From Nanobdellota archaeon (lineage in GTDB: Archaea; Nanobdellota; Nanobdellia; Pacearchaeales; JAHJTO01): a stretch of 64,000 bases of DNA. Positions within the stretch are counted from its first letter, which is position 1, and each line of letters begins with the position of its first letter. Where the stretch lies: assembly GCA_042572295.1 (NCBI GenBank), contig JBHPFA010000002.1:180-64179 (forward strand), in the 5' to 3' direction. This document shows, one piece after another, positions 4,591 to 42,111 of the stretch. The notes below the pieces were generated by a model. That model was not told where the DNA came from. It made no database searches and saw only the letters and a list, made by a program, of their open reading frames with translations. A program made the position numbers and the translations under genes.

Positions 4591-4689
4591 TATAATCCTC
4601 TTTTTGATGAATTAATCAGTAAAAAGAGATATATAAAAGTTATTAGAGTTTTCAAAAACCTTTTTATAGCTCATTATCGATATAATGAA

Positions 4690-5550: not shown

Positions 5551-5602
5551 GCATATCTAAAATTTACATAATCTTTATAAATAAAAAGGTGTTTTATTTT
5601 AA

Positions 5603-5767: not shown

Positions 5768-5857
5768 ATAGTTAACTTTTTAAATCAGTTTTCTAGTCCT
5801 CTATTATAGATAATGGCGTTGCTAAGGATTTAAAAGCTAAAATATCTAAGATTAAAG

Positions 5858-9495: not shown

Positions 9496-9496
9496 G

Positions 9497-27913: not shown

Positions 27914-28456
27914 ATGGCTCGTGCAATTTTTTTAGATAGAGATGGAGTAGTATGTGAAGACACTAATATGTTTTACCAAGGAACCCCCCTCTTAAAACCA
28001 GAAGATTTCAAATGGATTCCTGGATCAAAAGAAGCATTAAAATTGCTTTCTAACTTAGAATTTAAAGTTGCTTTAGTTACAAATCAATCCATAATAAATA
28101 AAGGCCTTCTTAGCGAAGAAGAATTCTTGAAAACTAATAATTCCCTTTATGGGGAAATGTCAAAAAATAATATAAATATAGAAAGAATTTATTATTGTAA
28201 GCATACTCCTAAAGAAAATTGTGAATGTAGGAAACCAAAAATAGGACTATTAATCCAGGCAGAAAAAGAATTGGGAGTTTCTCTTAAAGATTGTTATGTT
28301 ATTGGAGACAAAACTTCTGATATAAAAATGGGGGAAGATGCTGGTTGTAAAACGATTCTCGTTAAAACAGGATATGGAGGTAGAGATGACTCTTTCGAGG
28401 TAAATCCAGATTTTATAATGGATAACCTTTATGAAGCCATTAAGATATTAAAATGA
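27914..28456 (+). CDS. gmhB: D-glycero-D-manno-heptose 1,7-bisphosphate phosphatase (GmhB, HAD family)
   Basis: AIFLDRDGVV is HAD motif I. VTNQS, the Zn-site-like CKHTPKENCECRKPKIGLL and GDKTSDIKMGEDAGC complete the match. 180 aa is the typical GmhB size. Confidence 0.8.
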   Translation: MARAIFLDRDGVVCEDTNMFYQGTPLLKPEDFKWIPGSKEALKLLSNLEFKVALVTNQSIINKGLLSEEEFLKTNNSLYGEMSKNNINIERIYYCKHTPKENCECRKPKIGLLIQAEKELGVSLKDCYVIGDKTSDIKMGEDAGCKTILVKTGYGGRDDSFEVNPDFIMDNLYEAIKILK

Positions 28457-30516
28457 AAGCACTAATACTTGCTGGAGGTTTTGGAACAAGATTAAAAGAA
28501 ATTACTAAAGGTGTTCCTAAACCAATGGCACCTATTGCAGGCAAACCCTTTTTACACCACCAAATAAGACTACTTAGAGAACAAGGAATTACAGATATAG
28601 TCCTTGCAGTGCATTATATGAGTGATAAGATAAAAGCATATTTTGGAAATGGAAAGAGACATGGCGTAGATATTTCTTATGCTGAAGAAGAAATGCCTTT
28701 GGGAACAGGTGGAGCAATAAGAAATGCAAAAAGATATCTCGGAAATAATAAATTTGCCGTATTTAATGGAGATACTTATACTGGGATGAGTATTAAGAAC
28801 TTTAATAAATTTCATGAAGAAGTTGGTGAAGACTTTAGCATGGCAGTAACTTCTCATAATGAACCAGAACATCATGAGATTATTGAAATAAAGGACAATA
28901 TGGTAAAAACTCTTCATGAAAGAGGAAAATGTCCAAAAAATCTTGAATGCTTAATAAATAGTGGGGCCTATTTATTGGAACCAAACATATTTGATTATAT
29001 CGAAGAAGGAAGAAATATTTCTCTTGAAAAGGAAGTTTTTCCGAGAATTGTTGGTGAAGGTAAATTAGCTGCTTATAAACATACAGAGTATTTTATAGAT
29101 ATTGGTAGACCTGAAACTTATAAACAATTCAAAAAAGAAATGGTTAATGCCATGTTAATGAAAAAAACAGATTCTATAAGGAGTGCTATGAAAAGAATGG
29201 ACCGAAATGAAGAAGGTCTTGTATTTATTGTAGATGAAAACGAAAAACTAACAGGGATTGTAACCCCACATTTTATCAATAGTGCATTTATTAATGGGAA
29301 AACAAACCTCGAAGATAAACTTGAAAAAGTAATGCTTACTGAAGGCTTGGCTTTTGGAAATGAAAGTGATTCTCCTGAAAAAATAGCAGAAATAATGCTT
29401 CCCCGTACAAATAGGCTTCCGATACTTAATTCTCAAGGAAAAATTACAGACATAGTTTACAGACAAGAGGTATTGGGACCAAAAGAGTCTCCGACCTATA
29501 GGGCAATTTCTCCTTTAAGAATAAGTTTTTCAGGAGGGGGGACAGATAAAGAAGATTATTTCACAAGATTTGGTACAGGGGTTGTGATAAATGCGACAAT
29601 TGACAAATATTGTCATGCGACCACCAAACTAAGGCATGATAAATTGATAAGCATAAATCCTGGTGGCGAAGATGAAGAATTGCTAGACTTGAAAAAGGAA
29701 AAATTTGAATATAACGGCAGGTGGGATCTTGCAAAAGCAGTCGTTAAAGTGATGAATCCTGATTTTGGATTCGATCTTCATGCTTATAACGATGTTCCTC
29801 CAGGAAGAGGACTTGGTTCTTCTGGAAGTTTTGCAGTAATGCTTACTGAATTGATTGGACAAATGCGTGGAGAATACTTAACAAATGATCAAATAGCTAA
29901 ATTAGCAAGAAAAGCTGAAATAGAAGAATTAAAAATAAAAGGCGGATGGCAAGACCAATATGCTGCAAAAGTGGGGGGCTTTAATTTAATGGAATTTTCA
30001 CAAAATAAAATAACTCCTTCTTCACTTGCACTTTCTCCAGAAGTTGTAAGAGAGTTAGAAGAGAGCCTATTGCTCTGTTATATTGGAAAAACACATAATT
30101 CTGGAGAAATACATGCTGAACAAGAAAAGAATTTTCAAAAAGATGAAAAAAGAATACGTGGGGGTCTTGAAAAGTTAACTTCTATCGCAACGATTATAAG
30201 AGATTCTCTAGTTTCTAAAAATCCTTCAAAAGTTGGAGAGATTGGGAATTATTTACATGAAGCTTGGTTAATTAAAAAGGGGTTAAGTGGATCTATTTCT
30301 AATAATGAAATAGATGATTTGTATAACCTTGGATTAAAAAATGGGGCTACTGGGGGGAAACTTCTTGGAGCAGGAAACGGGGGATATCTTCTCTTCTTTT
30401 CACCTCCTGAGAGAAAAAGTTTGTTGGAAAAAGAACTATATAAAAATAAAAGAGAAATAATGAAGTTCCATTTTGAGCGACAACCTGCAGGAACACAGGT
30501 TTGGCCAGTCTATTAA
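28453..30516 (+). CDS. Tri-domain fusion: sugar-1-P nucleotidyltransferase (HddC-like) + CBS pair + GHMP sugar kinase (HddA-like)
   Basis: The N-terminal [34 protein letters not shown] is the NTP-transferase domain. The middle [31 protein letters not shown]...[15 protein letters not shown] is a CBS pair. The C-terminal [12 protein letters not shown] and [15 protein letters not shown] are the GHMP kinase domain. It overlaps gmhB by 4 nt. Confidence 0.8.
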   Translation: [687 protein letters not shown]

Positions 30517-30553: not shown

Positions 30554-31435
30554 TTGGAGATATGTATGAAGACTCCAATAAGGGTTTCTATAATCATCCC
30601 CACATATAATGAAGAAAAAGATATCTCAGAAGCAATAGCCTCCTTATTAAAACAGTCATTTAAAGATTTTGAAATAATAATAGTGGATGATGGTTCAATT
30701 GATAACACTCTCCAAATAATCAAAAATTTCTCTAAAAAAGATAAAAGAGTGAAAATAATTCCTGGAAAGCATAAAGGTCCTGGATTTTCTAGAAACCTTG
30801 GAGCTAAAAAGGCTAAAGGAAAAATTTTAGTATTTGTCGACGCAGATATGACCTTTGACAAAGATTATATTAAGAATTTAATTGCTCCTTTAACAAAAAA
30901 TAAACAGATAATTGGATCAACTCACGAATTGGAGATGGTTAAAAATACTAAAAACATTTGGAGCAGGTGTTGGGGGAAAATAAGATTTGATAAAGAAAGT
31001 GCTAAAGACGCTAGAATTTTTAGGGCAATAAACAAAAATAAATTTTTTGATATGGGTGGTTTTGATTCAAAATATGGGTATGCAGATGATCAAACCTTCT
31101 GGTTTAAGTATGGTAAAAGGCCATTTGCTGCAAAAAAAACAAGCTGTTACCATAAAAATCCCGAAACTTTAAAATCAGTTTACAAGCAAAGTAAATGGAT
31201 TGGCGCTTCTATAGAAAATTTTTGGTTAAAAGTCCCAATAGTCAAATATTTAGTTCCCCTAGTTATGCTTATTTTTTTCCCTTTAGCAGTCCCAATACTT
31301 GGATTGAAAAAAAGTATCAAAAATAAGGATTTTAAATTATTTTTCCCTTGGATGTTGATATTCATGACAGTTAGATACTTTGGTACAATCTCAGGAATCT
31401 TTAGAGAAATATATCTTGGGAGGAATATTAGATAA
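30554..31435 (+). CDS. GT2 glycosyltransferase with C-terminal TM segments
   Basis: VSIIIPTYNEEKDISEAIASLLKQ, IIVDDGSIDNT and FVDADMTFD. ATG 30565 is an alternative start. Confidence 0.8.
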   Translation: MEICMKTPIRVSIIIPTYNEEKDISEAIASLLKQSFKDFEIIIVDDGSIDNTLQIIKNFSKKDKRVKIIPGKHKGPGFSRNLGAKKAKGKILVFVDADMTFDKDYIKNLIAPLTKNKQIIGSTHELEMVKNTKNIWSRCWGKIRFDKESAKDARIFRAINKNKFFDMGGFDSKYGYADDQTFWFKYGKRPFAAKKTSCYHKNPETLKSVYKQSKWIGASIENFWLKVPIVKYLVPLVMLIFFPLAVPILGLKKSIKNKDFKLFFPWMLIFMTVRYFGTISGIFREIYLGRNIR

Positions 31436-31436
31436 G

Positions 31437-32003
31437 ATGGATGCTCGATTAAAAAGTGACAAATTAAGATTTAAACTCATAAATAGATTCTTAATCGGGA
31501 AAGATATTTTGGATATTGGATCTTGCGAAGGATTCTTACACAGATTACTTGTTGAGAATAATCCTAATAAAAAGATTTTTACATTAGATTCTAATCAGAA
31601 GGCAGATTATTCATTTAGTTTAGATAAACCCAAAAAAATAAAAAAGAAATTTGACACAATTGTTGCCGGGGAAGTTATAGAACACCTCGAATCACCCATT
31701 AAATTTGTTAGATATTGTAAAAGCCTACTTAAGAATAAGGGGAGACTTATAATAACTACTCCTAACGCCATAGGCCTGCAATATTTAAGGAATCCTGGTT
31801 GGTGTGTCCATTACAAAGGTTATCGGGGCCACACCCAAGCATTTACAAAAGATATGATAAAAAGGATTTGTGAAGATGAAAAGTTAAAGGTTATCCAGGA
31901 AAAATATATTAATGCTTTTTGGATGGGCAATCCCTTGAAATACTTGTCTTGGATAATAAAAAGATTAAGACCAGATATAATGGTTGTGGCCGAAAAAATT
32001 TAA
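31437..32003 (+). CDS. Class I SAM-dependent methyltransferase
   Basis: Contains ILDIGSCEGFLHRLL and VAGEVIEHLESP. I prefer ATG 31437, 1 nt after the upstream stop, over the ORF-track TTG 31380, which would overlap the GT2 gene by 56 nt. Confidence 0.7.
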   Translation: MDARLKSDKLRFKLINRFLIGKDILDIGSCEGFLHRLLVENNPNKKIFTLDSNQKADYSFSLDKPKKIKKKFDTIVAGEVIEHLESPIKFVRYCKSLLKNKGRLIITTPNAIGLQYLRNPGWCVHYKGYRGHTQAFTKDMIKRICEDEKLKVIQEKYINAFWMGNPLKYLSWIIKRLRPDIMVVAEKI

Positions 32004-32022: not shown

Positions 32023-32802
32023 TTATAGTTTTTTCTTCGTACTTATGTTCCCTATTTTTCTATATATTAAGACCAAGTTTTTAAGAAATACTATAGGAGT
32101 TATTATTGACATCAATATGAGATACGTCCCAGGGATGTTGAAGACTATTGTTATAAATAAGAATGAAAAGGGGTTATTGGGCCTTAATAACTCCATAGTA
32201 TAATCCTTTACTGTTTTTATTAATCCTTTTTTCTGACCATAGGCTGTGGCAACCATATAGCTCTCTCTCATCTTGTATATTAAATCAAGTCTTTTTTCAT
32301 TTGCAAAAGTTTCGTATACTTTAAGTTTGTTGAGATTATCTAATAACAAAAAGATTGAGGTAGAGATACCTAAATACAAATAAGCAATATTTCCATTAGT
32401 GTTATAAATCCCCCACCCTAATGCCAGTACTAATAACCCTCTGTGGATATAGTGGAAAAGCCTATCAAGATATGTTCCACCAATAGTAGTTATTTTTTTT
32501 GCTTTTGCGATTTCTCCATCAACATAATCTAGTAATACTGCAAAATGATACAAAATGGCTCCAAAAACCATATAAGAATATCCTCCGAGACCTATAAAAA
32601 AACATGCAACAACTCCTAAAAATCCCCAAGTAAAACTTATTTGATTTGGTGTTAAAGGAGTAAATCTTGCAAAAATGTATGCGACATAACTTGAAAAAGG
32701 TCCTAGAATTCGAATGTTTATGGGGTGTTTACCCCAATCATCTGATGCATCTTTTATTTGCTGTAAAGTAATTTTCTTATCCATTCTTAAACAAGCCCTC
32801 AC
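32023..32802 (-). CDS. CDP-alcohol phosphotransferase-family membrane protein
   Basis: Polytopic. LDYVDGEIAKAKKITTIGGTYLDRLFH matches D-x2-DG-x2-A(R/K)-x8-G-x3-D-x3-(D), with His in place of the last Asp. It overlaps the upstream rSAM gene by 4 nt. Confidence 0.7.
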   Translation of the reverse strand: MRACLRMDKKITLQQIKDASDDWGKHPINIRILGPFSSYVAYIFARFTPLTPNQISFTWGFLGVVACFFIGLGGYSYMVFGAILYHFAVLLDYVDGEIAKAKKITTIGGTYLDRLFHYIHRGLLVLALGWGIYNTNGNIAYLYLGISTSIFLLLDNLNKLKVYETFANEKRLDLIYKMRESYMVATAYGQKKGLIKTVKDYTMELLRPNNPFSFLFITIVFNIPGTYLILMSIITPIVFLKNLVLIYRKIGNISTKKKL

Positions 32803-34274
32803 ATATATTTTTTCTTATAAATTTTACTTAACTCCAAAAATGCTTCATTTCCTTTTTGATCAAACTTTTCTGCGAGTTCAATCTTTGGCCACATTTCTTT
32901 CTGGAATCTTACGTAAAGAGGGAATGTTCTTTGAAGTCCTTTAACTTGCTCCCTGTTTAACTGGGGCATGTCCAATCCTGCATCAGAACGATAATCTCCA
33001 GCATAACCTTCTCTTGGAATGTATCCCTTTTTGACCGAATGATCCCATAAAGGGGTTCCCCTATATGCACAAAAAATATTTGTTATAAGATTATCTGCCT
33101 GACAATCCCTATTAAGTTGAATTGTATCAAAAACAAGGTCTCTTGTTTCTTCTGGGAAGCCAATTATGTTATTTGCACAAATTCTTATTCCAGATTGTCT
33201 TGCTATTTCAAATGCATTGATTATCTTTTTGTTATCCACATAACGATTAAGCATTTTCCTCCTAAACTCATCATTTCCATGTTCTAAACCAATACTAATT
33301 CCTTCACAACCTATTTCTTTTAGTTTACTTACTCTATCAAGCTTAACTGTTTCTGGCCTTGTTTCAATCCAAAAAGGCAATCCAATTTCCTTGTATCCTT
33401 TAATAAAATCATCAAATCTTTTAGGACCCATTTGTAGAAAATTTTCTGCAACAAGGTAAAGATATTCTAAACCAAACTCTTCTTTCTTAGTTTTTAATTC
33501 ACTCATGAAATTCTCTATAGATCTTTGTCTAGGGTATCTTCCTATTCCTTTGTAATGTGCTTGTAATTTATCGTTACAACAGAATGCACAATGGTAAGTA
33601 CAACCCCTATTCAATTCTACAGGGCCACTTATGTTAATCTTTCCACCCATTGGCTTAAAGAACCTTTTCTTTTCATAAATACTCCAATCTTGGTCTGGTA
33701 ATGAATCAAGATCTGCAAGTGGAGCAAGAGGATTTTTTATTATGCCTCCATCTTTCTTTAACCAAATATTATCTGTACGAGAATAATCTTCTTTTGATCT
33801 TATTTTATTTGCAAGATCGACTATTGCCTTTTCACCTTCTCCAACACAAATCATATCGATAGAATCTTCTTTTAGAATATCTTCGAGACCCATTGTTGCA
33901 TGTATTCCCCCGACAATTTTGGGAGTTTTTAAGTCTTTGATGCTATTTAATAAATTTAAAGCAATATGGTAGGTAGGCTCTACGACTGAAACTCCTATTA
34001 AATCTGGTTTAAATGAATCTATAGATTTGTGAAAATCTTTTACAAGGTTTTCTTTCTTTTCAGTTATTCCAAGCTCCTCAAGATTGGTTTCTTTTACTTG
34101 AAGAGATTCGACTCTTGCTTCATCCCCTGTTTTTTCCCTTGTTCTATAAAAAGTTGTGTCAAACAAAGCTGTTTCATGTCCCGCTTTTTTTAAACAAGAA
34201 GACAAAAGAGAAGGTCCGATAGGTATTAAATTGTCCATAAAACTATTTGCATAAACTAGAAGTACTTTTGACAT
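32799..34274 (-). CDS. B12-binding-domain radical SAM enzyme (class B)
   Basis: An N-terminal B12-type domain (IGVSVVEPTY...IVGGIHATM) is followed by LNRGCTYHCAFCCN. Confidence 0.8.
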   Translation of the reverse strand: MSKVLLVYANSFMDNLIPIGPSLLSSCLKKAGHETALFDTTFYRTREKTGDEARVESLQVKETNLEELGITEKKENLVKDFHKSIDSFKPDLIGVSVVEPTYHIALNLLNSIKDLKTPKIVGGIHATMGLEDILKEDSIDMICVGEGEKAIVDLANKIRSKEDYSRTDNIWLKKDGGIIKNPLAPLADLDSLPDQDWSIYEKKRFFKPMGGKINISGPVELNRGCTYHCAFCCNDKLQAHYKGIGRYPRQRSIENFMSELKTKKEEFGLEYLYLVAENFLQMGPKRFDDFIKGYKEIGLPFWIETRPETVKLDRVSKLKEIGCEGISIGLEHGNDEFRRKMLNRYVDNKKIINAFEIARQSGIRICANNIIGFPEETRDLVFDTIQLNRDCQADNLITNIFCAYRGTPLWDHSVKKGYIPREGYAGDYRSDAGLDMPQLNREQVKGLQRTFPLYVRFQKEMWPKIELAEKFDQKGNEAFLELSKIYKKKYM

Positions 34275-34275
34275 T

Positions 34276-35766
34276 TTAAGTTACTCTTCCCAAAATTAAA
34301 TCTGCCTTATCTCCATGTCTTTTCAGAAATTGTTTGAACTTTGATTCCCATGCTCCAGGATTTTTCTTTTTTATATATTCATTGAAAGCTGTTGTTTTTT
34401 CTATAACTAATTTCTCAAGTTCTCCTGGAGAGATTATATAATCAGCAGAAGTTGGAGGAATTTTTATTGCAACATGTTTTAGGTCCCCTTTTACTCCAGA
34501 ATCAAGATATCCTTTTTCTTTACAGATTTTATGTAATCTGGAACCAATCATTGGATGAGCAAGGAAAAGAGAGGCGCTATCAAATCCTACTTCATAAGGA
34601 TAATTGAAAGTATCTTCCATCTCTTCTCTTTTTTCTCCAGGAAATCCAACGATGAACAACCCATGAACTTGTACACCCTTATCATGACATATATCAATCA
34701 AACTTTTTACTTTTTCTTTTGATGGGACCCTTTTGTTAATTATTTCTTTTCTAACTCTTTCATTTCCAGACTCCACAGCAAAAGTAAGTTGATAGGCTCC
34801 AGATTGGGCCATTAAATCTATCATCTCTTCATCCAATGTTTGAATCATAAGCCCATTTGGAGTACACCAAGAAAGATTATAGGGTTTTAATCTTTTAAAT
34901 AATTCTTTTGCCCTAGGTTTGTGTGCTGTTAAGTTATCATCTGCAAACTGTATTTCTTTAACTCCATAATTTTTTGTTAAGTCATCAATTTCTTCAATTA
35001 TGTTATCAACAGATCTTGTCCTAAAATGATGCCCCCAATAATTTACAGTAGAACAAAAAACACAATCAAATGGACAGCCCCTAGAAGTCATAACTTGTTC
35101 AACACGGTCTTCTTTTGAGAATGGGCCAAAGGGAACTCCTATTTGGATATAACGTTCCATATTTATCATATCTCTTGCAGGTTGGGGTAAGGCATTTAAG
35201 TCTTTTATCCTATTAATTAGTGGATTTACTATGGCTTCTCCATTTTTTTTATAGGCTACTCCATCAAAAGATAAGGAAGTCTCTCCTTTATTGAGAGCCT
35301 CAAGAAGGTTTAGTGCCCTATATTCTCCTTCCCCTATCACAACATAATCTACTGATTTGTTCATTATTGATTCTTTTGGAGCAAGTGAAGGGTGTATTCC
35401 TCCCAAAACAACTGAAATATCTGGATTTATTTTTTTAACTAAATTACAATGGTCTATAGCATTTTCTTGATGAGCTGAAAACATCGAAGTTATTCCCACT
35501 ATATCTGGATTATAATCCTTTATTCTGTTGGAAATTTCCTCTTTTGATAATCCATAGGTAAGATAATCTCCATTTATACTTGTTTTATGGTATCCCTCAC
35601 AAGGGGAGTCTAAAATTTTAACATCATAGCCCTTATCTCTTAATAATGCACCCATATATAAGAAACCTAGGGGGGTTGTAAGCCTTCTTGCACTATCTTT
35701 GGGCATAGTATTCGAAGGATTCAAAAATAAGACTTTTCTATATTTACCCTTTGCCATCTTAAACAC
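34276..35766 (-). CDS. B12-binding-domain radical SAM enzyme (class B)
   Basis: An N-terminal B12-type domain (VGITSMFSAH...VLGGIHPSL) is followed by TSRGCPFDCVFCS. Only 1 nt separates it from the downstream rSAM gene. Confidence 0.8.
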   Translation of the reverse strand: MFKMAKGKYRKVLFLNPSNTMPKDSARRLTTPLGFLYMGALLRDKGYDVKILDSPCEGYHKTSINGDYLTYGLSKEEISNRIKDYNPDIVGITSMFSAHQENAIDHCNLVKKINPDISVVLGGIHPSLAPKESIMNKSVDYVVIGEGEYRALNLLEALNKGETSLSFDGVAYKKNGEAIVNPLINRIKDLNALPQPARDMINMERYIQIGVPFGPFSKEDRVEQVMTSRGCPFDCVFCSTVNYWGHHFRTRSVDNIIEEIDDLTKNYGVKEIQFADDNLTAHKPRAKELFKRLKPYNLSWCTPNGLMIQTLDEEMIDLMAQSGAYQLTFAVESGNERVRKEIINKRVPSKEKVKSLIDICHDKGVQVHGLFIVGFPGEKREEMEDTFNYPYEVGFDSASLFLAHPMIGSRLHKICKEKGYLDSGVKGDLKHVAIKIPPTSADYIISPGELEKLVIEKTTAFNEYIKKKNPGAWESKFKQFLKRHGDKADLILGRVT

Positions 35767-35807: not shown

Positions 35808-36518
35808 CTATTGATTTTCTATCGATTTTAATGCTCTTGGGATGTCTTCTTTTTTGTCAATTTCAGACCATGCCAAGTTTAAATCTACAAAACCATACCA
35901 GGGAGAAATTTTGCTTGCATTATATGCACAATCCTCATAATATTCATCAAGATTTCCCTGTTCGAGGTTTTCTTTATGAAGATTAAACATAATATCCATA
36001 AATTCTTTTGAGAACTTTGAAATTCCTGTAAACTCAAAGGGGTTTTTTCCAGGATTCTTTTTTCCTAAATAAGTTATTTTATTTGATGAATCTAAAAGCA
36101 CATAAACTTCATCATTACTCCCACAACATTTTGTAAGAACTACTTTTGATTTATCATCTGAATTGATTAGCTTATTTATTATTTCCCCATCATAAACTAT
36201 GTCTCCATCAAGAACAAGACATTCCTTAGAATTTCTCAAAGCAGTATAAAGAGAATGCATACTCCCTGTTGTTTCATAAGATTTATTAAAGACATATGAA
36301 AGTTCTATGTCTCCCTTCCATTTTTCAAGATATTCTTTTATTATCTCTCCTTTGAATCCTAAAGCAATTGTTGCTTTTTTAACACCTGCTGCAGCAAGAG
36401 CTTCTAATGAATATTGAATAAGAGGTTTTCCTTTTATCTCTAAAAGGGGCTTCGGCTTTCCATTTAATATTTCTTTAAGCCTTGTCCCCATGCCTGCTGC
36501 TAAAATTATTGCTTCCAT
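35808..36518 (-). CDS. LicC/PntC-like nucleotidyl(cytidylyl)transferase
   Basis: MEAIILAAGMGTRLKEILNGKPKPLLEIKGKPLIQYSLE is the NTP-transferase G-loop. 236 aa. It starts 1 nt after the stop of the ppd-like gene. Confidence 0.75.
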   Translation of the reverse strand: MEAIILAAGMGTRLKEILNGKPKPLLEIKGKPLIQYSLEALAAAGVKKATIALGFKGEIIKEYLEKWKGDIELSYVFNKSYETTGSMHSLYTALRNSKECLVLDGDIVYDGEIINKLINSDDKSKVVLTKCCGSNDEVYVLLDSSNKITYLGKKNPGKNPFEFTGISKFSKEFMDIMFNLHKENLEQGNLDEYYEDCAYNASKISPWYGFVDLNLAWSEIDKKEDIPRALKSIENQ

Positions 36519-36519
36519 T

Positions 36520-37638
36520 TTAATCTCTTAAAGAACCCAAAAAAGATTCTTTGTTTTCTAAGGGTGTTTTTGTTGGCCTTCCAAGATCTTTTCTTGATTC
36601 AGAATTTACTTTTATTATTAGAAGAACTGGACCTTTCAAGTCATTGATTTTTTTCATTGATTCTTCTAATTCTTTTTTGGTTTCTATTTGTAATGCAAAA
36701 GCATAACCACTTGCTAAAGCTATACTTTTAAAATCAACATTATCTGAAATTGTTGGTTGTCCCCCTGTAGAACCGTGTGCCCCATTATCAAATATGAAAT
36801 GATAAAGATTATTTGGTTTTTGATAGCCTATTGTTGCCATTGATCCAAGCTGCATTAAGATTGCTCCATCGCCATCAAATGCAAAAATCTTCTTTTGTGG
36901 TTTTTGAAGAGCAACTGAATTGGCAAGAGAAGCTACACACCCCATGCTTCCGACCATGTAGAAGTCCTTTGGATCTTGATTTTTAGAAATACGGTATTCA
37001 AATAGCTCTCTTGAAGTTTTTCCAGTTGTAGATATTATTGCTTCCGAACCAGATGAAAAATCAATAATTGTTTTTATGGCTTCTTCCCTAGACATTTCAA
37101 AACTTCTTATTTTCTTAGTTTTAGTAGGATAATCATCAATAACTCCTTTTTTGATGATTAATGCCACTGGAGCTTGCTTTTTGAAGGCCTCTTCTTTCAT
37201 CTTAGCTATAACTTTTTCTGCTTCTTTAGGATTGTCTGGAAGAATTTCGTAAGGGACCTCTAAGCAGTCAAGAAGATTGAAAGTTATTCTTCCCATTTTT
37301 TTATGCTGTGGTTCATCTTTTTTCCCGGGCTCTCCCCTTAATCCTATCATTAAAAGCATTGGAATACTATAGACCTCTTTGTCACATAAAGAAGTAAGTG
37401 GATTTACACATTTTCCAAGGCCTGAATTCTGCATATATACTACACCTAATTTTCCTGTTGAGAGATTATATCCTGCACATATGGCTGTAGCCTCACATTC
37501 ATTTACTGCTACGATATTTGTTAAGTCTTTAGCTTCTGCTAAATAACTCATCCATCCCTTGAAAGTACTATCTGGAACTCCTGAAAAAAATGAAATTTCA
37601 TGTTTCTTAAATATCTCTGAAAGAGATGTAAAATCCAT
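36520..37638 (-). CDS. ppd: Phosphonopyruvate decarboxylase (ThDP-dependent)
   Basis: 372 aa, the short ThDP-enzyme size typical of Ppd. The ThDP motif is FDGDGAILMQLGSMATIG...IFDNGAHGSTGGQ. It sits next to PEP mutase and the AEP transaminase. Confidence 0.85.
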   Translation of the reverse strand: MDFTSLSEIFKKHEISFFSGVPDSTFKGWMSYLAEAKDLTNIVAVNECEATAICAGYNLSTGKLGVVYMQNSGLGKCVNPLTSLCDKEVYSIPMLLMIGLRGEPGKKDEPQHKKMGRITFNLLDCLEVPYEILPDNPKEAEKVIAKMKEEAFKKQAPVALIIKKGVIDDYPTKTKKIRSFEMSREEAIKTIIDFSSGSEAIISTTGKTSRELFEYRISKNQDPKDFYMVGSMGCVASLANSVALQKPQKKIFAFDGDGAILMQLGSMATIGYQKPNNLYHFIFDNGAHGSTGGQPTISDNVDFKSIALASGYAFALQIETKKELEESMKKINDLKGPVLLIIKVNSESRKDLGRPTKTPLENKESFLGSLRD

Positions 37639-37676: not shown

Positions 37677-38789
37677 GTGTCTCGATTTATGGAAAGAAAG
37701 GTATTAATGACTCCTGGACCTGCTACGACTTCTCGAGGAGTGAAAGAAGCACAAGTAGTTCCAGATATTTGCCCTAGAGAGGAAGAATTTGGAAGAGTTA
37801 TGGAAGATATTAGGGAAAAATTGATTAGAATAGCTGGAGGAGATGAGAATTATGAGTGTGTTTTGATGGGGGGCCCTGGTACTGCTGGAATGGAAGCTAC
37901 GCTTAGTTCAGTTGTAAATGGCAAGGTTCTAATTATCAACAACGGAGCCTATGGTGAAAGGTTTGTCAAAATAGCTAAATGCTATAATATGGATTTTAAA
38001 GAAGTAGTCTTTGGTTGGGATGAAGAAATTAATCCTGAAAAAGTTGAGGCAGAGATTGATGAAGGAGTCAAATACATTGTTATGATCCATCATGAAACAA
38101 CTACTGGAATTCTTAATCCTGTTGAAAAGATTTCAGAATTAGCCAAAAAACATAATTGTGTTTTTATTCTTGATGCAATCTCTAGTTTTGCAGGTCTTCC
38201 TATAGATGTAAAAAAACTCAATGTTGATTTTCTTATATCTTCAAGTAATAAATGTATTCAAGGCATGCCAGGAATATGTTTTATTATATGCAAAAAAGAA
38301 GAACTTGTAAAATTAAAAGAGGTTCCAAAAAGAGGTTTTTACTTAAACATGTATTTGGAACATGAATATGTTAAATTAAAGAAACAAACAAGATTTACCC
38401 CTCCCGTTCAAACTGCCTATGCTTTAAAAAAGGCAATTGAAGAATTTTTTGAAGAGGGAGCTGAAAAAAGATATGGGAGATATCAAGAAAATAATAAGAT
38501 CCTTTTAGAAGGTATGGCAAAATTGGGTTTCAAAAAAATATTCCCTGACCATTTTGAGGAAAGTGGTTTGTTAACTACCTTTTTTGACCCAGATAATAAA
38601 AATTATTCATTTGATAAAATGCATGATGGTTTATACAAGAGAGGATTTACTATTTATCCTGGAAAAATAAAAGAAAAAACATTCAGACTTTCTAATTTAG
38701 GTGATTTGAATATAGAAGATATTAAAAAGTTTATTGAAGAACTTAAAAAAGTAATGAAAGAAATGGATTTAGAATTAATTAGCGCTTAA
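37677..38789 (+). CDS. phnW: 2-aminoethylphosphonate:pyruvate aminotransferase-like class V aminotransferase
   Basis: LMTPGPATTS, and SSSNKCIQGMPG carrying the PLP lysine. About 365 aa. The ORF track starts at GTG 37677; ATG 37689 (MERKVLMTPGP) is more likely. Confidence 0.8.
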   Translation: MSRFMERKVLMTPGPATTSRGVKEAQVVPDICPREEEFGRVMEDIREKLIRIAGGDENYECVLMGGPGTAGMEATLSSVVNGKVLIINNGAYGERFVKIAKCYNMDFKEVVFGWDEEINPEKVEAEIDEGVKYIVMIHHETTTGILNPVEKISELAKKHNCVFILDAISSFAGLPIDVKKLNVDFLISSSNKCIQGMPGICFIICKKEELVKLKEVPKRGFYLNMYLEHEYVKLKKQTRFTPPVQTAYALKKAIEEFFEEGAEKRYGRYQENNKILLEGMAKLGFKKIFPDHFEESGLLTTFFDPDNKNYSFDKMHDGLYKRGFTIYPGKIKEKTFRLSNLGDLNIEDIKKFIEELKKVMKEMDLELISA

Positions 38790-40496
38790 TATGTCTTTAA
38801 CAGAATAAAGATCTTTTTCATTGTGTATTTCTAACCATCCACCATGTGTTTCATGTATTGCGATTTTAAATCCCCGATTTATCATTTCTTGAATCATATC
38901 TGTATCAACAGCCTCTTTAAAATTAATTGAATCATGGAACCTTCCTTGAGAATTTTTTTTACAGTCTTCATAGACTTTGATAAGATTTTCTGCCCCCACT
39001 TTTGAAAACTTTGCAAGACCCAAATATTCGTGAGTCATTTCTTCAGTTGAAATATTTCTCCCAATCTTAAGGGCTTCATCATTGTGTGTCCTAAACCTTT
39101 GATATGCTAATTTATTGTTGTTCTTTGTAATAACACAATCTAATTTTTTATCGACTTCGTGCTCGTGGTAAAGATAAGAGTTATCTACAACAATAACAAT
39201 ATCTTCTTTTCTCCCAAGAATTTCTTTTACAAGTATTTCATCAAGAAGGATATCTGAATTAACATAAATAAACCCATTTTTCATCTTATCTTTCGCTTCC
39301 ATTATACTATGGAGCATTCCTTCTGAACTATAATTTTCTTTTTGAAAATAATTAATTCCTTTGAGGTTGAATTTTTCTTTTTGATAACCAATTATTACAT
39401 TAATATCATCCAACCCCTGTGCTTTAAACGCTGAGATTTGATGTTCCAATAAAGTTTTACCATTAATTTGAATTAGTGCTTTAGGAATATCTCCAGTAGA
39501 CTCAAAAGGTTGATGGGCCCCTGCTGCAGGAATTATCACTGTTGGTTTTGGAGATATTGATTTATCTTTTTCCTTAATATCAAGAAACCCTACTTTTTCA
39601 AAAACTTCTTTGGTTGTAACAATATAAGGATCTGCTTCAAGAGATCTTTTATTTTCCAAGATGATCCTTCCAACATTCTGCATTGCCTTATAAGAAGATC
39701 TCAACATATGGTTCGCATATATGACTACATTAAATCCTTTTTCTTTAAATTCCTCTTCATAAATAGAATTATAAGTTGTAGGAACACAAACAAGAGGTTT
39801 TTTAAGATTTAGTTCATGGCATAACTTTTTGTAGCCTTCTGCAAACTCAAAAATACCTTTAGGAGATATTGATTTTGAATGGATCATAATCCCATCCACT
39901 CCTGCTAGAAGGTATTTTCTTGCCCTGTATAAAGCATCTTCTACAGATTTCCCTGCAATAAGGCTTTCTATCCTTGCTATAATCATAAAATCTTTAGATC
40001 TTTGTATTTTTTTCCCAGTCATTATTTTGTTAGCAAATTTGTCTGGATCTTCTTGATCTTGGTTTGTTCCACCTTCAAGACTATTCCTTTTTGGAAATAT
40101 TTTATCTTCGATTATAATTGCGGAGACTCCTGTTTTTTCTAATTTAGGAATTAAATACTCAAAATGATGGATATCTCCCCCCGTATCCCCATCTACAATC
40201 ATAGGTTTATTAGTTACTTCAAGTATTTCTGAGATAGTTCTTAATCTTGAATCAAAACTGATTATTTCTATATCTGGATGCCCTTTAGAAGCGGAATCTG
40301 TTAGGCTGCTTTCCCAGAAAAAGTCAAATTCTTCAGATTTATCACATTTATCTTGAGTACAACATTTTAAATCGTTTACAATAAGGCCACTTAGAGCGTT
40401 ATGGACTTCCATACCCTTTATAAGTTTGTTAGATTTTAACAATTCTGATAATTTTCGTCTTCTCTCTTCAGGCGTTATTAGATGTCTTAAAGTCAT
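38775..40496 (-). CDS. pepM: Fusion protein: phosphoenolpyruvate mutase (N-terminal) + nucleotidyltransferase domain (C-terminal)
   Basis: The N-terminal ICL/PEP-mutase barrel carries the discriminating EDKxxxxxNS motif as AIIIEDKIFPKRNSLEG, plus MIVDGDTGGD. The C-terminal ~260 aa (TVIIPAAGAHQPFESTGDIPKALIQINGKTLLEHQI) form an NTP-transferase fold. Confidence 0.9.
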   Translation of the reverse strand: MTLRHLITPEERRRKLSELLKSNKLIKGMEVHNALSGLIVNDLKCCTQDKCDKSEEFDFFWESSLTDSASKGHPDIEIISFDSRLRTISEILEVTNKPMIVDGDTGGDIHHFEYLIPKLEKTGVSAIIIEDKIFPKRNSLEGGTNQDQEDPDKFANKIMTGKKIQRSKDFMIIARIESLIAGKSVEDALYRARKYLLAGVDGIMIHSKSISPKGIFEFAEGYKKLCHELNLKKPLVCVPTTYNSIYEEEFKEKGFNVVIYANHMLRSSYKAMQNVGRIILENKRSLEADPYIVTTKEVFEKVGFLDIKEKDKSISPKPTVIIPAAGAHQPFESTGDIPKALIQINGKTLLEHQISAFKAQGLDDINVIIGYQKEKFNLKGINYFQKENYSSEGMLHSIMEAKDKMKNGFIYVNSDILLDEILVKEILGRKEDIVIVVDNSYLYHEHEVDKKLDCVITKNNNKLAYQRFRTHNDEALKIGRNISTEEMTHEYLGLAKFSKVGAENLIKVYEDCKKNSQGRFHDSINFKEAVDTDMIQEMINRGFKIAIHETHGGWLEIHNEKDLYSVKDILSAN

Positions 40497-40530: not shown

Positions 40531-42111
40531 CTATACCTTGGCCATACTTTGTCTTTTTTTTGCCAATTTACTATTTATTGCATCAAGAATCATAAAGTCA
40601 TTCTTATCCAATCCCTTAAACAAAATGACTAATAATCCATAAGAAATTAAAAATAAAATGAAAAGTAAAATTAAAGAAAATAGATTAATTGTGAATAGAG
40701 ATCTTAGATAAACTAAAAATGCTGAGGCAATTATGCCTGCTAGAAAAATATTGATCATCTTTCTTCTGACAAAAATGTGTTTTAAATAATACTTTGATTG
40801 GGCGAGGAAAAGAAGGTTTAGGAATATTATGGAGATTAATGTTGCTAAAGCTGCACCATTTATTCCTAAAGAATTTTCTATGAACAGAACATAGGGCATA
40901 GGGACCAATATCGCATTAAGGATAACATTCATTATGAAGGCAAGAGTAATGTTAAACAATACCAGTTTGGATTTTCCAATTATATAGATTAGCTGGGTGG
41001 GGACTATAAAAACAGCCGAGATAAAAGCCCCTATTGCAAGAATTCTCAAGGCATTTGCTGCAGCAAGATACGCTGGACCAAATATTATATTGATTATTGC
41101 TCCAGGAAATAATATAATCAGTGAAAATGCAGTTATATTAATTAAAAATATCCACTTTGTAACTTGTTTACTTGTCTCAATTATCACCTTTGTTCTTTTC
41201 TTGGAATATTCCCTGCTTATTAAGGGGAAGAAAAGTTGCATGAACAATTCAGGAGCTATGGCTAATAATAAAGCTATTGGAACTGCTGCCTGATATATTC
41301 CTACTTCAACTACTGATTTATAGAAGCCTATAGCAAAGGTATCTACCCAATAGAGTAATATGAGTATCACTCCTGAAAACAAAAGTGGAAAAGAATAACT
41401 GAAAAAGAGTTTTCTTGTTTTTACTTTTTCTTTTTTATTCAAATCACTTTTAATAAAGAGCTCAGGTATTTTACGTTTAGAGACGAAATAAGACACCATT
41501 AAAACAACAATCATTCCAAATAAATAAGAAAGAATTGTAGAGCCCCCCTTAACACCCATAAAAATAAGTAATACAATAATAATGAATTTTGAAAGAGGAT
41601 TTATAATATTTGCTATAAATGAATGGATGGATATTTTTTCATAAGCCCTTAGTGCCCCTATAAATGGAGAGGTAAGCATTGTTGCAGGTATTATGAAACT
41701 TGCGACTTTAAAATAAAATATAAGTTGAGAGTTGTTGAAAACATTCAACGCAAGGGGTTCTGATAGAAAAAATAGTAATATCCCTGAAAGTATGCTTGAA
41801 AAGGTTAGAATTATCAAAGAAAGATTGAAGATATATGTAACCTTGTTAGACTTCCCTTTTGCACGATAAATCGGAATAAATCTTGCGAGACCCTCCGAAA
41901 GACCCAATGCTGCAACTGCTATGAACCATCCACTAATCATTAAAGCTATGGAAAATAAACCATAAACCTCTGGACCAAAATACCTTGCAATTATAACTCT
42001 GTATAAGTAACCTATGATTTTTGACAATACAAGACTTAGGAATACAATTCCAGAGGTTTTAACTAAAAGTTTTAAATTAAGATGTAGTCCCTCTTTTTGT
42101 TTACTGGCCAT
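40531..42111 (-). CDS. MOP-superfamily polysaccharide flippase (Wzx/RfbX-like)
   Basis: 526 aa with about 14 hydrophobic segments. The N-terminal RVIIARYFGPEVYGLFSIALMI is typical of polysaccharide biosynthesis (Polysacc_synt) proteins. Confidence 0.7.
   Translation of the reverse strand: MASKQKEGLHLNLKLLVKTSGIVFLSLVLSKIIGYLYRVIIARYFGPEVYGLFSIALMISGWFIAVAALGLSEGLARFIPIYRAKGKSNKVTYIFNLSLIILTFSSILSGILLFFLSEPLALNVFNNSQLIFYFKVASFIIPATMLTSPFIGALRAYEKISIHSFIANIINPLSKFIIIVLLIFMGVKGGSTILSYLFGMIVVLMVSYFVSKRKIPELFIKSDLNKKEKVKTRKLFFSYSFPLLFSGVILILLYWVDTFAIGFYKSVVEVGIYQAAVPIALLLAIAPELFMQLFFPLISREYSKKRTKVIIETSKQVTKWIFLINITAFSLIILFPGAIINIIFGPAYLAAANALRILAIGAFISAVFIVPTQLIYIIGKSKLVLFNITLAFIMNVILNAILVPMPYVLFIENSLGINGAALATLISIIFLNLLFLAQSKYYLKHIFVRRKMINIFLAGIIASAFLVYLRSLFTINLFSLILLFILFLISYGLLVILFKGLDKNDFMILDAINSKLAKKRQSMAKV

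What the first reader, a model, noticed from the sequence alone, without database searches (positions are those of the whole stretch)
32799..35766. Tandem B12-radical-SAM genes inside the phosphonate operon: Fom3-like logic acting on a CMP-phosphonate?
Seen: two paralogous ~490-aa class B rSAM genes separated by 1 nt lie between the cytidylyltransferase and the CDP-alcohol phosphotransferase. Established: in fosfomycin biosynthesis the bifunctional Fom1 (cytidylyltransferase + PEP mutase) makes cytidylyl-2-hydroxyethylphosphonate, and the B12-rSAM Fom3 C-methylates that CMP-conjugate. PhpK/BcpD are B12-rSAM P-methyltransferases. Inference: a PepM-NTase fusion is again paired with B12-rSAM enzymes, which suggests one or two radical methylations (or another radical edit) on CMP-AEP or a precursor. 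The products would be, for example, aminopropyl- or dimethylated aminoalkyl-phosphonate head groups. The class I MTase at 31437-32003 could add N-methylation. A doubly rSAM-tailored AEP attached to a cell-surface molecule would be new chemistry.
Basis: partly seen in the sequence, partly recalled or inferred. Interest (0 to 1): 0.8.

Follow-up and report, generated by a model that had tools for sequence, protein, structure and literature searches.

The report
B12 radical-SAM pair in aminoethylphosphonate operon
In the surface-glycan gene island of an uncultured DPANN archaeon, two different cobalamin-type radical SAM enzymes sit inside an operon that makes, CMP-activates and transfers 2-aminoethylphosphonate; the same arrangement recurs in other uncultured archaea and bacteria, and probably gives a radical-methylated phosphonate decoration that has not yet been described chemically.

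Summary
Two intact class-B (B12-binding) radical SAM genes, rSAM-B at 34276-35757/35766 and rSAM-A at 32799-34274, lie 1 nt apart on the minus strand. They sit between a PntC-like cytidylyltransferase and a CDP-alcohol-phosphotransferase-like membrane protein, in a tight run Ppd-PntC-rSAM-B-rSAM-A-transferase.

They are not close paralogs. They share 24% identity and belong to two separate families. The window holds four B12-rSAM genes in all.

The source is a Nanoarchaeota (DPANN) MAG, and the genes lie in an AglB/STT3 N-glycosylation-type island.

Both families are strongly linked to PEP mutase. PepM or Ppd lies within 10 kb in 11 of 16 outside loci with close homologs, against 4 of 76 control loci with distant B12-rSAMs (p about 1e-7). 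Some rSAM-B homologs are fused to the PntC-like NTase, and some sit beside Fom1-type CyTase-PepM fusions.

The nearest curated family to rSAM-B is SD_1168 (374 bits, below its 575-bit cutoff). A cited review records a proposed C- or P-methylation for SD_1168 and an unknown physiological substrate.

The Fom3-like reading, radical C-methylation of CMP-AEP before transfer to a lipid-linked glycan, is the best-supported mechanism. It remains inferred: the chemistry, substrate and product are untested, and Fom3 could not be compared directly. The class-I MTase is not a conserved part of the cassette.

The parts
34276..35766 (-). rSAM-B: class-B (B12-binding) radical SAM, 493 aa from the ATG at 35757. 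Sister group of the SD_1168 family. Travels with, and is sometimes fused to, the PntC-like NTase.
   Evidence: Pfam PF02310 and PF04055. CPFDCVFC at 228. NF038361 373.8 bits against a cutoff of 575; HpnJ 170; PhpK 127. AF2 pLDDT 91; Foldseek top hits TsrM, MgmA, AprD4, TokK, CysS, OxsB. Fusions P0021, P0033, P0073.
32799..34274 (-). rSAM-A: class-B radical SAM, 491 aa, from a separate uncharacterised family. Usually lies directly upstream of the CDP-OH-PT-like gene.
   Evidence: Pfam. CTYHCAFC at 225. No NCBIfam hit above 111 bits. 24% identity to rSAM-B. AF2 pLDDT 92 with the same class-B fold hits. Adjacent to CDP-OH-PT in the window, L083 and L132.
35808..36518 (-). PntC-like nucleotidyltransferase, predicted AEP cytidylyltransferase.
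   Evidence: PF12804/PF00483. Best PDB match is 6pd1/6pd2, annotated nucleotidyl transferase/class V aminotransferase, E 3e-24 over residues 2-233. That this entry is Treponema denticola Tde1415, the PntC studied in PMC6697681, is my own knowledge.
36520..37638 (-). Phosphonopyruvate decarboxylase (Ppd), first gene of the 5-gene run.
   Evidence: TIGR03297 442 bits, cutoff 312.5. Its stop lies 1 nt before the PntC start.
37677..38789 (+). 2-aminoethylphosphonate transaminase (AEPT), on the opposite strand.
   Evidence: TIGR03301 395.8 bits, cutoff 360.8.
38775..40496 (-). PEP mutase fused to a C-terminal LicC/PntC-type NTase domain.
   Evidence: TIGR02320 338.6 bits, cutoff 319.55, plus PF12804 at residues 321-439. 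EDKIFPKRNS motif at 130. Best PDB hit of the NTase domain is LicC 1jyk.
32023..32802 (-). CDP-alcohol-phosphotransferase-like integral membrane protein. Predicted to transfer the phosphonyl head group from the CMP conjugate to an acceptor hydroxyl.
   Evidence: PF01066 30.1 bits, cutoff 22. Motif D86xxD89G90xxA93K94...G103xxxD107xxxH111; the fourth Asp is not conserved in this subfamily. Hydrophobic segments present. Conserved in 10 related loci.
40531..42111 (-). Wzx/MATE-like polysaccharide flippase directly upstream of PepM, conserved in related cassettes.
   Evidence: PF01943/PF13440. 46-54% identical homologs beside the cassette in L083, L086 and L132, and Polysacc_synt genes in L127 and L128.
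31380..32003 (+). Class-I methyltransferase, convergent with the operon. Probably not part of the cassette.
   Evidence: Pfam Methyltransf_23. Not orthologous to the MTase that follows CDP-OH-PT in L001, L127 and L128. tblastn finds no relative of it in L132.

Best explanation
The two genes encode two distinct cobalamin-dependent radical SAM enzymes that tailor the 2-aminoethylphosphonate (AEP) head group of a surface glycan.

Proposed pathway:
- PepM, Ppd and AEPT make AEP. This step follows from equivalog-level matches.
- The PntC-like NTase converts AEP to CMP-AEP. This is inferred from its full-length match to the solved PntC structure.
- rSAM-B, which is genetically coupled to PntC, acts on the CMP-activated phosphonate. 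The most likely reaction is a Fom3-type radical C-methylation of an unactivated sp3 carbon of the aminoethyl chain (inferred).
- rSAM-A, which is genetically coupled to the transferase, performs a second, different radical edit just before or after transfer. The most likely reaction is another C-methylation (inferred).
- The CDP-alcohol-phosphotransferase-like membrane enzyme moves the tailored phosphonyl group from CMP onto a lipid-linked glycan or lipid hydroxyl.
- The adjacent Wzx-like flippase exports that intermediate. In this archaeon AglB would then deliver it to surface proteins.

My estimates for the separate steps are about 0.8 that both enzymes work in the phosphonate pathway, about 0.6 (rSAM-B) and 0.45 (rSAM-A) that they are methyltransferases, and about 0.5 that the CMP conjugate is the substrate.
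For: - Tight 5-gene run Ppd-PntC-rSAM-B-rSAM-A-transferase, with gaps or overlaps of 1 nt, 41-50 nt, 1 nt and an overlap.
- Close homologs (at least 45% identity) of either rSAM have PepM or Ppd within 10 kb in 11 of 16 outside loci. These include DPANN and other archaea, Omnitrophota and an alphaproteobacterial MAG. The figure is 4 of 76 for loci of at least 10 kb holding only distant B12-rSAMs (Fisher p = 9e-8).
- Internal control: loci holding the 38-40% relatives of the window's rSAM at 13688-15097 contain no PepM.
- Rosetta-stone fusions of the PntC-like NTase to rSAM-B: P0033, 743 aa, N-terminus 39% identical to the window NTase (E 1e-40) and rSAM part 58% identical to rSAM-B; also P0021 and P0073.
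- rSAM-B homologs sit beside Fom1-architecture CTP_transf_like-PepM fusions in L123 and L130.
- The conserved adjacencies PntC then rSAM-B, and rSAM-A then CDP-OH-PT, persist when the locus is rearranged in L132.
- The nearest curated family of rSAM-B is NF038361, SD_1168 (373.8 bits; next best HpnJ 170). True members lie beside PepM, Ppd and NTases in Streptomyces heliomycini (1037 bits) and a melainabacterial MAG (587 bits).
- PMC9204698 places SD_1168 in the main SSN cluster that also holds Fom3, MoeK5 and HpnJ, and records a proposed C- or P-methylation with unknown physiological substrate.
- Both AF2 models (pLDDT 91 and 92) match the class-B enzymes TsrM, MgmA, TokK and CysS.
- Fom3's use of a CMP-phosphonate substrate is established (PMC8158854; PMC6697681).
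Against: - There is no biochemical evidence for any member of either family.
- Sequence and fold do not separate methylases from other class-B chemistries. AprD4 and OxsB, which are not methylases, are equally good structural matches.
- rSAM-B falls below the SD_1168 cutoff, and rSAM-A has no informative family at all.
- Five of 16 close-homolog loci show no PepM or Ppd within 10 kb. L083 and L125 have the rSAM-A, rSAM-B and transferase genes but no PepM, Ppd or AEPT. L001 has AEPT, NTase and transferase only. The anammox loci L002 and L131 have only AP_endonuc_2, an rSAM-A-like gene and an HpnL-like gene.
- Gene order in L127 and L128 puts the rSAMs between Ppd and AEPT. That order would equally fit action on an earlier intermediate.
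- The literature searches run here returned no paper reporting a C-methylated AEP natural product.
Confidence: 0.5

Rival explanations
1. One or both enzymes perform a non-methylating radical edit of the phosphonate. Examples are O2-independent hydroxylation to 1-hydroxy-AEP, dehydrogenation, dehydration or a rearrangement. They would then be the anaerobic counterpart of the 2OG/Fe(II) oxygenase found in aerobic versions of the same cassette.
For: - The cassette CDP-OH-PT + NTase + PepM + Ppd + AEPT + HpnL + 2OG-Fe(II) oxidase is described in Nostoc and Burkholderia (PMC5987646).
- The loci seen here come from mostly anaerobic uncultured lineages, carry B12-rSAMs, and show no 2OG oxygenase in the Pfam listings.
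- HpnL-like genes sit beside rSAM-A-like genes in L002, L126 and L131.
- The best NCBIfam hit of rSAM-A is BchE, an anaerobic oxidative cyclase, although at only 110.6 bits.
- AprD4 (a dehydratase) and OxsB are among the top structural matches.
Against: - rSAM-B's nearest curated family is SD_1168, for which the cited review records a proposed C- or P-methylation.
- Most characterised class-B enzymes are methylases (PMC9204698 and PMC12931638).
- The BchE score is far below its cutoff of 481.
- No B12-rSAM hydroxylase acting on a small phosphonate is known (my own knowledge).
Confidence: 0.2
2. The rSAMs tailor the glycan, the lipid carrier or a phosphoester head group such as phosphoethanolamine, rather than the phosphonate itself. 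They would then travel with the transferase module, and the link to PepM would be indirect.
For: - The window is a glycan island with four B12-rSAMs, an rSAM-SPASM gene, several MTases and many GTs.
- L083 and L125 keep rSAM-A, rSAM-B and the transferase (plus NTase in L125) without PepM, Ppd or AEPT within 10 kb.
- The anammox loci have an rSAM-A-like gene without any phosphonate gene nearby.
- B12-rSAM sugar C-methylases exist, for example GenK and Fms7 (PMC9204698).
Against: - The fusion to the PntC-like NTase argues for a small nucleotide-linked substrate.
- PepM or Ppd co-localise in 11 of 16 loci against 4 of 76 controls.
- rSAM-B-only loci (L085, L086, L123, L130) place it inside the PepM/AEPT/NTase core.
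- PepM may simply lie elsewhere in the genomes behind L083 and L125, since those are metagenomic contigs.
Confidence: 0.15
3. rSAM-B is a P-methyltransferase, as the name of its nearest NCBIfam family says, and makes a phosphinate (C-P-C) head group.
For: The best NCBIfam hit is 'Sden_1168 family B12-binding radical SAM P-methyltransferase'. SD_1168 P-methylates N-acetyl-demethylphosphinothricin in vitro (Allen & Wang 2014, cited in PMC9204698 and PMC8950095; the detail of the assay is from my own knowledge).
Against: - The score is below the cutoff (373.8 against 575), and the PhpK family scores 126.6 against 600.
- The review states that SD_1168's physiological reaction is either C- or P-methylation and that its substrate is unknown.
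- The window's gene set (PepM, Ppd, AEPT) leads to AEP, a phosphonate with no P-H bond to methylate. No phosphinate-forming genes were recognised in the window.
Confidence: 0.05

Closest known systems
Fom1/Fom3 of fosfomycin biosynthesis (CyTase-PepM fusion plus a B12-rSAM that C-methylates CMP-2-hydroxyethylphosphonate)
   Same: PepM fused to an NTase, Ppd, and a class-B rSAM sit in one locus. rSAM-B homologs are fused to, or adjacent to, the phosphonate NTase, and some lie beside true Fom1-architecture PF01467-PepM fusions. A review places SD_1168, rSAM-B's nearest curated family, in the same main network cluster as Fom3.
   Different: The intermediate here is AEP, because a transaminase is present and no FomC-type reductase is. 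The fused NTase is PF12804 and C-terminal. There are two different rSAMs. The product is passed to a membrane transferase and flippase in a glycan island, not to HppE and FomD for an antibiotic. Direct sequence comparison with Fom3 was not possible.
SD_1168 / NF038361 family (Shewanella denitrificans B12-rSAM methylase of unknown physiological role)
   Same: It is the best-scoring curated family for rSAM-B. True members also lie beside PepM, Ppd and NTases.
   Different: rSAM-B scores 373.8 bits against a cutoff of 575 and is about 33-37% identical to true members. rSAM-A scores only 68.6 bits.
Pnt (phosphonyl tailoring) pathway: PntC AEP cytidylyltransferase plus LicD-type transferase (Rice et al. 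2019, PMC6697681)
   Same: PepM-NTase fusion, Ppd, AEPT and a PntC-like NTase that matches the solved structure 6pd1/6pd2 over its full length. A cell-surface destination.
   Different: The transferase is a CDP-alcohol-phosphotransferase-like membrane protein rather than LicD (L123 and L130 do have LicD). Two B12-rSAMs lie between activation and transfer. The host is archaeal.
Putative phosphonolipid-type cassette of Nostoc and Burkholderia (CDP-OH-PT, NTase, PepM, Ppd, AEPT, HpnL, 2OG-Fe(II) oxidase; PMC5987646)
   Same: The same five-gene core, PepM/Ppd/AEPT/NTase/CDP-OH-PT, also seen as a tight operon in the alphaproteobacterial L129.
   Different: The tailoring enzyme there is an O2-dependent oxygenase; here it is one to five B12-rSAMs. 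Here the cassette is embedded in GT, flippase and AglB context.
PhpK/BcpD P-methyltransferases
   Same: Class-B rSAM enzymes in phosphonate or phosphinate pathways.
   Different: TIGR04479 scores are 126.6 and 70.6 bits against a cutoff of 600. No phosphinate-forming genes are present.

Membership tests
Class B (cobalamin-binding) radical SAM enzymes | N-terminal B12-binding Rossmann domain plus a radical SAM core with a CxxxCxxC cluster motif | tested here: met
   PF02310 (48.5 and 80.5 bits, cutoff 32.1) and PF04055 (77.7 and 93.8 bits, cutoff 29.5) in both. One CxxxCxxC motif in each.
Class B (cobalamin-binding) radical SAM enzymes | Three-dimensional architecture like solved class-B enzymes | tested here: met
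   AF2 pLDDT 91 and 92. Foldseek top hits TsrM, MgmA, AprD4, TokK, CysS and OxsB, E 1e-17 to 1e-25, TM about 0.6-0.7.
Class B (cobalamin-binding) radical SAM enzymes | Actual binding of cobalamin and a [4Fe-4S] cluster | not testable with these tools
   Needs purified protein. AprD4, a close structural match, has the domain but is not a methylase.
Fom3-type CMP-phosphonate C-methyltransferase | Sequence orthology or close clustering with Fom3 (UniProt Q56184) | not testable with these tools
   The Fom3 sequence could not be obtained. It was absent from the PDB hits, no NCBIfam model for it appeared, and the papers that might hold it are not in the library. Indirect evidence only: rSAM-B's top families are SD_1168 and then HpnJ, and a review places both in the same main SSN cluster as Fom3.
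Fom3-type CMP-phosphonate C-methyltransferase | Genomic coupling to PepM, Ppd and a phosphonate cytidylyltransferase | tested here: met
   Window operon. 11 of 16 related loci against 4 of 76 controls. NTase::rSAM-B fusions. Fom1-type fusions in L123 and L130.
Fom3-type CMP-phosphonate C-methyltransferase | HEP-forming reductase (FomC) and downstream FomD/HppE | tested here: not met
   No such genes appeared among the window ORFs scanned. An AEP transaminase is present instead.
Fom3-type CMP-phosphonate C-methyltransferase | Methylcobalamin-dependent methyl transfer to the carbon of a CMP-phosphonate | not testable with these tools
   Requires an anaerobic enzyme assay.
SD_1168 family (NF038361) | Score at or above the curated cutoff of 575 bits | tested here: not met
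   rSAM-B 373.8 bits, rSAM-A 68.6 bits. Positive controls: L006 1037 bits, L004 587 bits.
PhpK/BcpD P-methyltransferase (TIGR04479) | Score at or above the cutoff of 600 bits, and an H-phosphinate-forming pathway in the cluster | tested here: not met
   126.6 and 70.6 bits. The gene set gives AEP only.
PntC AEP cytidylyltransferase (for 35808-36518) | Full-length similarity to the characterised PntC and location in a PepM/Ppd/AEPT cluster | tested here: met
   6pd1/6pd2, E 3.3e-24, residues 2-233 against 4-234. Cluster context. Substrate preference was not tested.
CDP-alcohol phosphotransferase (for 32023-32802) | PF01066 above cutoff and the motif D1xxD2GxxAR...GxxxD3xxxD4 | tested here: inconclusive
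   PF01066 scores 30.1 bits against a cutoff of 22. D1, D2, G, A, G and D3 are present and invariant in 10 homologs. R is replaced by K. D4 is His here and varies across the subfamily.

The most novel reading that the evidence does not exclude
A widespread cassette that I found described in no paper searched here exists in mostly anaerobic uncultured lineages, including DPANN and other archaea, Omnitrophota and Riflebacteria. In it, one to five cobalamin radical SAM enzymes remodel CMP-activated 2-aminoethylphosphonate, for example to C-methylated aminoalkylphosphonates. A divergent CDP-alcohol-phosphotransferase then attaches the product to lipid-linked glycans. This would give a new class of natural phosphonate head groups and the first phosphonate-modified archaeal N-glycans. 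It would also suggest a physiological reaction type for the SD_1168-like enzymes: C-methylation of nucleotidyl-phosphonates.
Probability: 0.4. Interest if true: 0.75.

Novelty: new variant of a known kind. Interest (0 to 1): 0.6.

Why it matters
- Fom3 is the only B12-rSAM known to act on a nucleotide-activated phosphonate, and it serves an antibiotic pathway.
- This locus and at least a dozen related ones suggest that the same logic is used, sometimes several times over, to diversify the common cell-surface phosphonate AEP in organisms that cannot use O2-dependent tailoring enzymes.
- If confirmed, it would add new natural phosphonates such as methylated AEPs.
- It would suggest a physiological context for the SD_1168-like enzymes, whose substrate is unknown.
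- It would reveal phosphonate decoration of archaeal surface glycans.
- It would supply two new, compact (about 490 aa) class-B rSAM families with a predictable small-molecule substrate for mechanistic work.
- It would also bear on the sources and structures of environmental phosphonates in anoxic habitats.

Tried and rejected
I used those loci as a control set.
- The metagenome scan gave only 4 close loci. Contexts were therefore gathered with all 12 encoding-contig look-ups.
- A direct comparison with Fom3, and reading the SD_1168 paper, both failed. Fom3 was not among the PDB sequence matches, no NCBIfam model for it appeared, and PMC4362910, PMC6103835, PMC4048823 and PMC6554712 are not held.
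- Foldseek and PDB sequence searches confirm the class-B architecture but cannot separate methylases from other chemistries.
- The idea that the class-I MTase at 31380-32003 belongs to the cassette was rejected. It is not orthologous to the conserved post-transferase MTase of L001, L127 and L128, and tblastn finds no relative of it in L132.
- The idea that the window's AP_endonuc_2 gene (25554-26282) matches the AP_endonuc_2 genes next to rSAM-A-like genes in L002, L128, L129 and L131 was rejected. tblastn finds no hit at 1e-5.
- Literature searches for CMP-AEP with radical SAM, for methylated AEP or aminopropylphosphonate natural products, and for DPANN or Omnitrophota phosphonates returned no relevant paper.
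- The third protein-homology search and the representative-library search were not used. They would not have named functions.

Full report
**1. Observation**

The two ORFs are present as described. rSAM-A is 32799..34274 (-), 491 aa. rSAM-B is 34276..35766 (-), 496 aa from a GTG. The junction reads TAA-A-ATG. The more likely start of rSAM-B is the ATG at 35757, which gives a 493-aa protein identical to an NCBI protein (P0001).

Both proteins carry PF02310 (B12-binding) and PF04055 (Radical_SAM) above the Pfam cutoffs. Each has a single CxxxCxxC motif.

They are only 24% identical to each other (E 5e-29). The window contains two further B12-rSAM genes, at 13688-15097 (+) and 22297-23625 (-), and rSAM-B is closer to those (31% and 29%) than to rSAM-A. 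'Paralogous' therefore holds only at superfamily level.

**2. Surroundings**

On the minus strand, Ppd (36520-37638; TIGR03297 442 bits), a 236-aa NTase (35808-36518), rSAM-B, rSAM-A and a PF01066 CDP-alcohol-phosphotransferase-like membrane protein (32023-32802) form a tight run. The junctions are a 1-nt gap, a 41-50 nt gap, a 1-nt gap and an overlap.

Upstream lie a Wzx-like flippase (40531-42111) and PepM fused to a C-terminal PF12804 NTase (38775-40496). PepM scores 338.6 bits on TIGR02320 and has the EDKIFPKRNS motif. The AEP transaminase (37677-38789; TIGR03301 395.8 bits) is on the plus strand between them. The gene set therefore specifies AEP.

The stand-alone NTase matches PDB 6pd1/6pd2, annotated as a nucleotidyl transferase/class V aminotransferase, over its full length (E 3e-24). 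From my own knowledge this entry is Tde1415, the PntC AEP cytidylyltransferase studied in PMC6697681. The PepM-fused NTase domain matches LicC best.

The exact-match proteins are labelled 'Nanoarchaeota archaeon' and lie on a 162-kb contig. The window also holds an STT3/AglB oligosaccharyltransferase (5858-8515), a GT4-family phosphosugar transferase, a second flippase, many GTs, sugar-nucleotide enzymes, an rSAM-SPASM gene and several MTases. The operon therefore sits in an archaeal N-glycosylation-type island.

**3. Comparative genomics**

Homologs of both proteins are numerous in metagenomes, and none carries an informative name. I collected 16 outside loci holding a homolog at least 45% identical to rSAM-A or rSAM-B. 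I scored them by tblastn with the window's proteins.

- PepM and/or Ppd lie within 10 kb in 11 of the 16 loci. Most of these also have AEPT, a PntC-like NTase and a CDP-OH-PT-like gene.
- The hosts include DPANN and other archaea (L123 carries archaeal-type ribosomal protein genes), Omnitrophota (L127) and an alphaproteobacterial MAG (L129).
- As a control, among loci of at least 10 kb retrieved with the same tools but holding only distant B12-rSAMs, 4 of 76 have PepM or Ppd. Two of those four are true SD_1168-family members. Fisher p = 9e-8.
- Loci holding the 38-40% relatives of the window's rSAM at 13688-15097 show no PepM. The association is therefore specific to the A and B families, not a general property of glycan-island rSAMs.

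Three rSAM-B homologs are natural fusions with the PntC-like NTase. P0033 is 743 aa; its N-terminus is 39% identical to the window NTase (E 1e-40), and its rSAM part is 58% identical to rSAM-B. P0021 and P0073 are the others.

In L123 and L130, rSAM-B homologs sit beside PF01467-PepM fusions, which is the Fom1 architecture.

In L132, the closest relative, the locus is rearranged into Ppd-PntC-rSAM-B and AEPT-rSAM-A-transferase units. This shows two conserved adjacencies: PntC with rSAM-B, and rSAM-A with the transferase. The rSAM-A/transferase pair is also seen in L083.

The number of B12-rSAMs per locus varies from one (L085, L086, L123) to at least five (L083, L127, L132).

This is an inference.

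Exceptions:
- L083 and L125 keep rSAM-A, rSAM-B and the transferase without PepM, Ppd or AEPT within 10 kb.
- L001 keeps AEPT, NTase, rSAM-B and the transferase without PepM or Ppd.
- The anammox loci L002 and L131 have AP_endonuc_2, an rSAM-A-like gene (47% identity) and an HpnL-like gene, with no phosphonate genes nearby.

**4. Family placement**

rSAM-B's best curated family is NF038361, 'Sden_1168 family B12-binding radical SAM P-methyltransferase'. It scores 373.8 bits against a cutoff of 575. Next come HpnJ (170), BchE (144) and PhpK (127).

True NF038361 members were recovered beside PepM, Ppd and NTases in Streptomyces heliomycini (1037 bits) and a melainabacterial MAG (587 bits). rSAM-B is therefore a sister group of a PepM-associated family.

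According to a review (PMC9204698), SD_1168 lies in the main SSN cluster that also contains Fom3, MoeK5 and HpnJ. [quoted passage not shown] Its in vitro P-methylation of demethylphosphinothricin (Allen & Wang 2014) is cited there and in PMC8950095. I could not read the primary paper.

rSAM-A has no informative family; its best hit is BchE at 110.6 bits.

The AlphaFold models are confident (pLDDT 91 and 92). They match TsrM, MgmA, AprD4, TokK, CysS and OxsB. This confirms the class-B architecture but does not identify the chemistry.

The transferase retains D86, D89, G90, A93, G103 and D107 of the CDP-alcohol-phosphotransferase motif. It has K in place of R, and the fourth Asp position is variable (His here) across ten cassette homologs.

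**5. Most likely mechanism**

- Shown at equivalog level: PEP to PnPy to PnAA to AEP.
- Inferred from structure-level similarity: AEP to CMP-AEP by the PntC-like NTase.
- Inferred from fusion, synteny, the Fom1/Fom3 precedent (PMC8158854; PMC6697681) and the SD_1168 relationship: rSAM-B acts on the CMP-phosphonate, most likely by radical C-methylation.
- Inferred from adjacency: rSAM-A performs a second, distinct edit next to the transfer step.
- Inferred from Pfam, hydrophobic segments and the conserved flippase: the transferase moves the phosphonyl group from CMP to a lipid-linked glycan or lipid, which is flipped and, in this archaeon, handed to AglB.

**6. Rival readings**

- Non-methylating radical tailoring, as an anaerobic counterpart of the 2OG oxygenase in the Nostoc/Burkholderia version of the cassette (PMC5987646).
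- Action on the glycan, the lipid or a phosphoester head group.
- P-methylation.

Their weights are given in the rivals section.

**7.

- The Fom3-like logic is supported by context but unproven.
- The PhpK analogy fails the cutoffs and does not fit AEP chemistry.
- The class-I MTase at 31380-32003 is convergent with the operon and is not a conserved cassette member. A different class-I MTase family does follow the transferase in L001, L127 and L128.

**8. Novelty**

None of the literature searches run here returned a paper describing B12-rSAMs in AEP surface-glycan cassettes, methylated AEP natural products, or phosphonates in DPANN or Omnitrophota. The kind of system, a B12-rSAM tailoring a nucleotidyl-phosphonate, is known from fosfomycin. 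This case is a new variant. It uses different enzyme families and a different intermediate (AEP), has several rSAMs, uses a different transferase, is aimed at a surface glycan, and occurs in archaea as well as bacteria.

Noticed in passing
window 13688-15097 (+) and 22297-23625 (-): Two further B12-binding radical SAM genes (469 and 442 aa, each with CxxxCxxC) lie in the same glycan island, making four in 64 kb. Loci holding 38-40% relatives of the first one contain no PepM, so it probably tailors something other than the phosphonate.
   Followed up: partly
window 5858-8515, 8497-9495, 9497-10744: An STT3/AglB-type oligosaccharyltransferase, a GT4-family (PF00953) phosphosugar transferase and a second Wzx-like flippase. 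The whole 5.8-48 kb region looks like an archaeal N-glycosylation island, which suggests that the phosphonate ends up on an N-glycan.
   Followed up: partly
window 19842-20885 (+); also L001 637-1677, L124 2066-3076, L125 2871-3881, L130 3606-4598, L083 18537-19574: An rSAM-SPASM protein of about 330-347 aa recurs in the same glycan islands as the rSAM-B homologs. Its function is unknown.
   Followed up: no
protein P0070 (797 aa, rSAM-B homolog): The precomputed Pfam hits list Intein_splicing (PF14890) and HNH_3 (PF13392) inside an rSAM-B homolog. This appears to be an intein-interrupted member of the family.
   Followed up: no
L126 13018-14322: A cassette with an rSAM-A homolog (67%), PepM-NT, AEPT and NTases has no Ppd. 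It has instead a CTP_transf_like-citrate-synthase fusion and an HD protein. This hints at a phosphonomethylmalate-type branch combined with B12-rSAMs.
   Followed up: no
L002 and L131 (anammox Brocadiales/Scalindua), 8.9-12.8 kb: A conserved triad of AP_endonuc_2, an rSAM-A-like B12-rSAM (47% identity) and an HpnL/LPG_synthase_TM-like membrane protein, with no phosphonate genes within 10 kb. In the alphaproteobacterial L129, the AP_endonuc_2 and rSAM pair sits next to a PepM-Ppd-AEPT-NTase-CDP-OH-PT operon.
   Followed up: partly
L001 (Riflebacteria) 4232-9972: An AEPT homolog (51%), an rSAM-B homolog (55%) and a CDP-OH-PT gene occur with transaldolase/FSA-like and transketolase genes and three further rSAMs, but with no PepM or Ppd within 10 kb. 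This may be a different route to the aminoalkyl head group, or PepM may lie elsewhere in the genome.
   Followed up: no
window 32023-32802 and homologs (alignment A3): In this cassette-associated CDP-alcohol-phosphotransferase subfamily, the fourth Asp of the canonical motif is not conserved (H, S, G, A or D). This may reflect the use of a CMP-phosphonate donor.
   Followed up: partly
window 28453-30516: A triple fusion of NTP_transferase, a CBS domain and a GHMP kinase (687 aa), followed by a GT2. The same fusion lies near the cassette in L132. It is probably a sugar-1-phosphate activation module.
   Followed up: no
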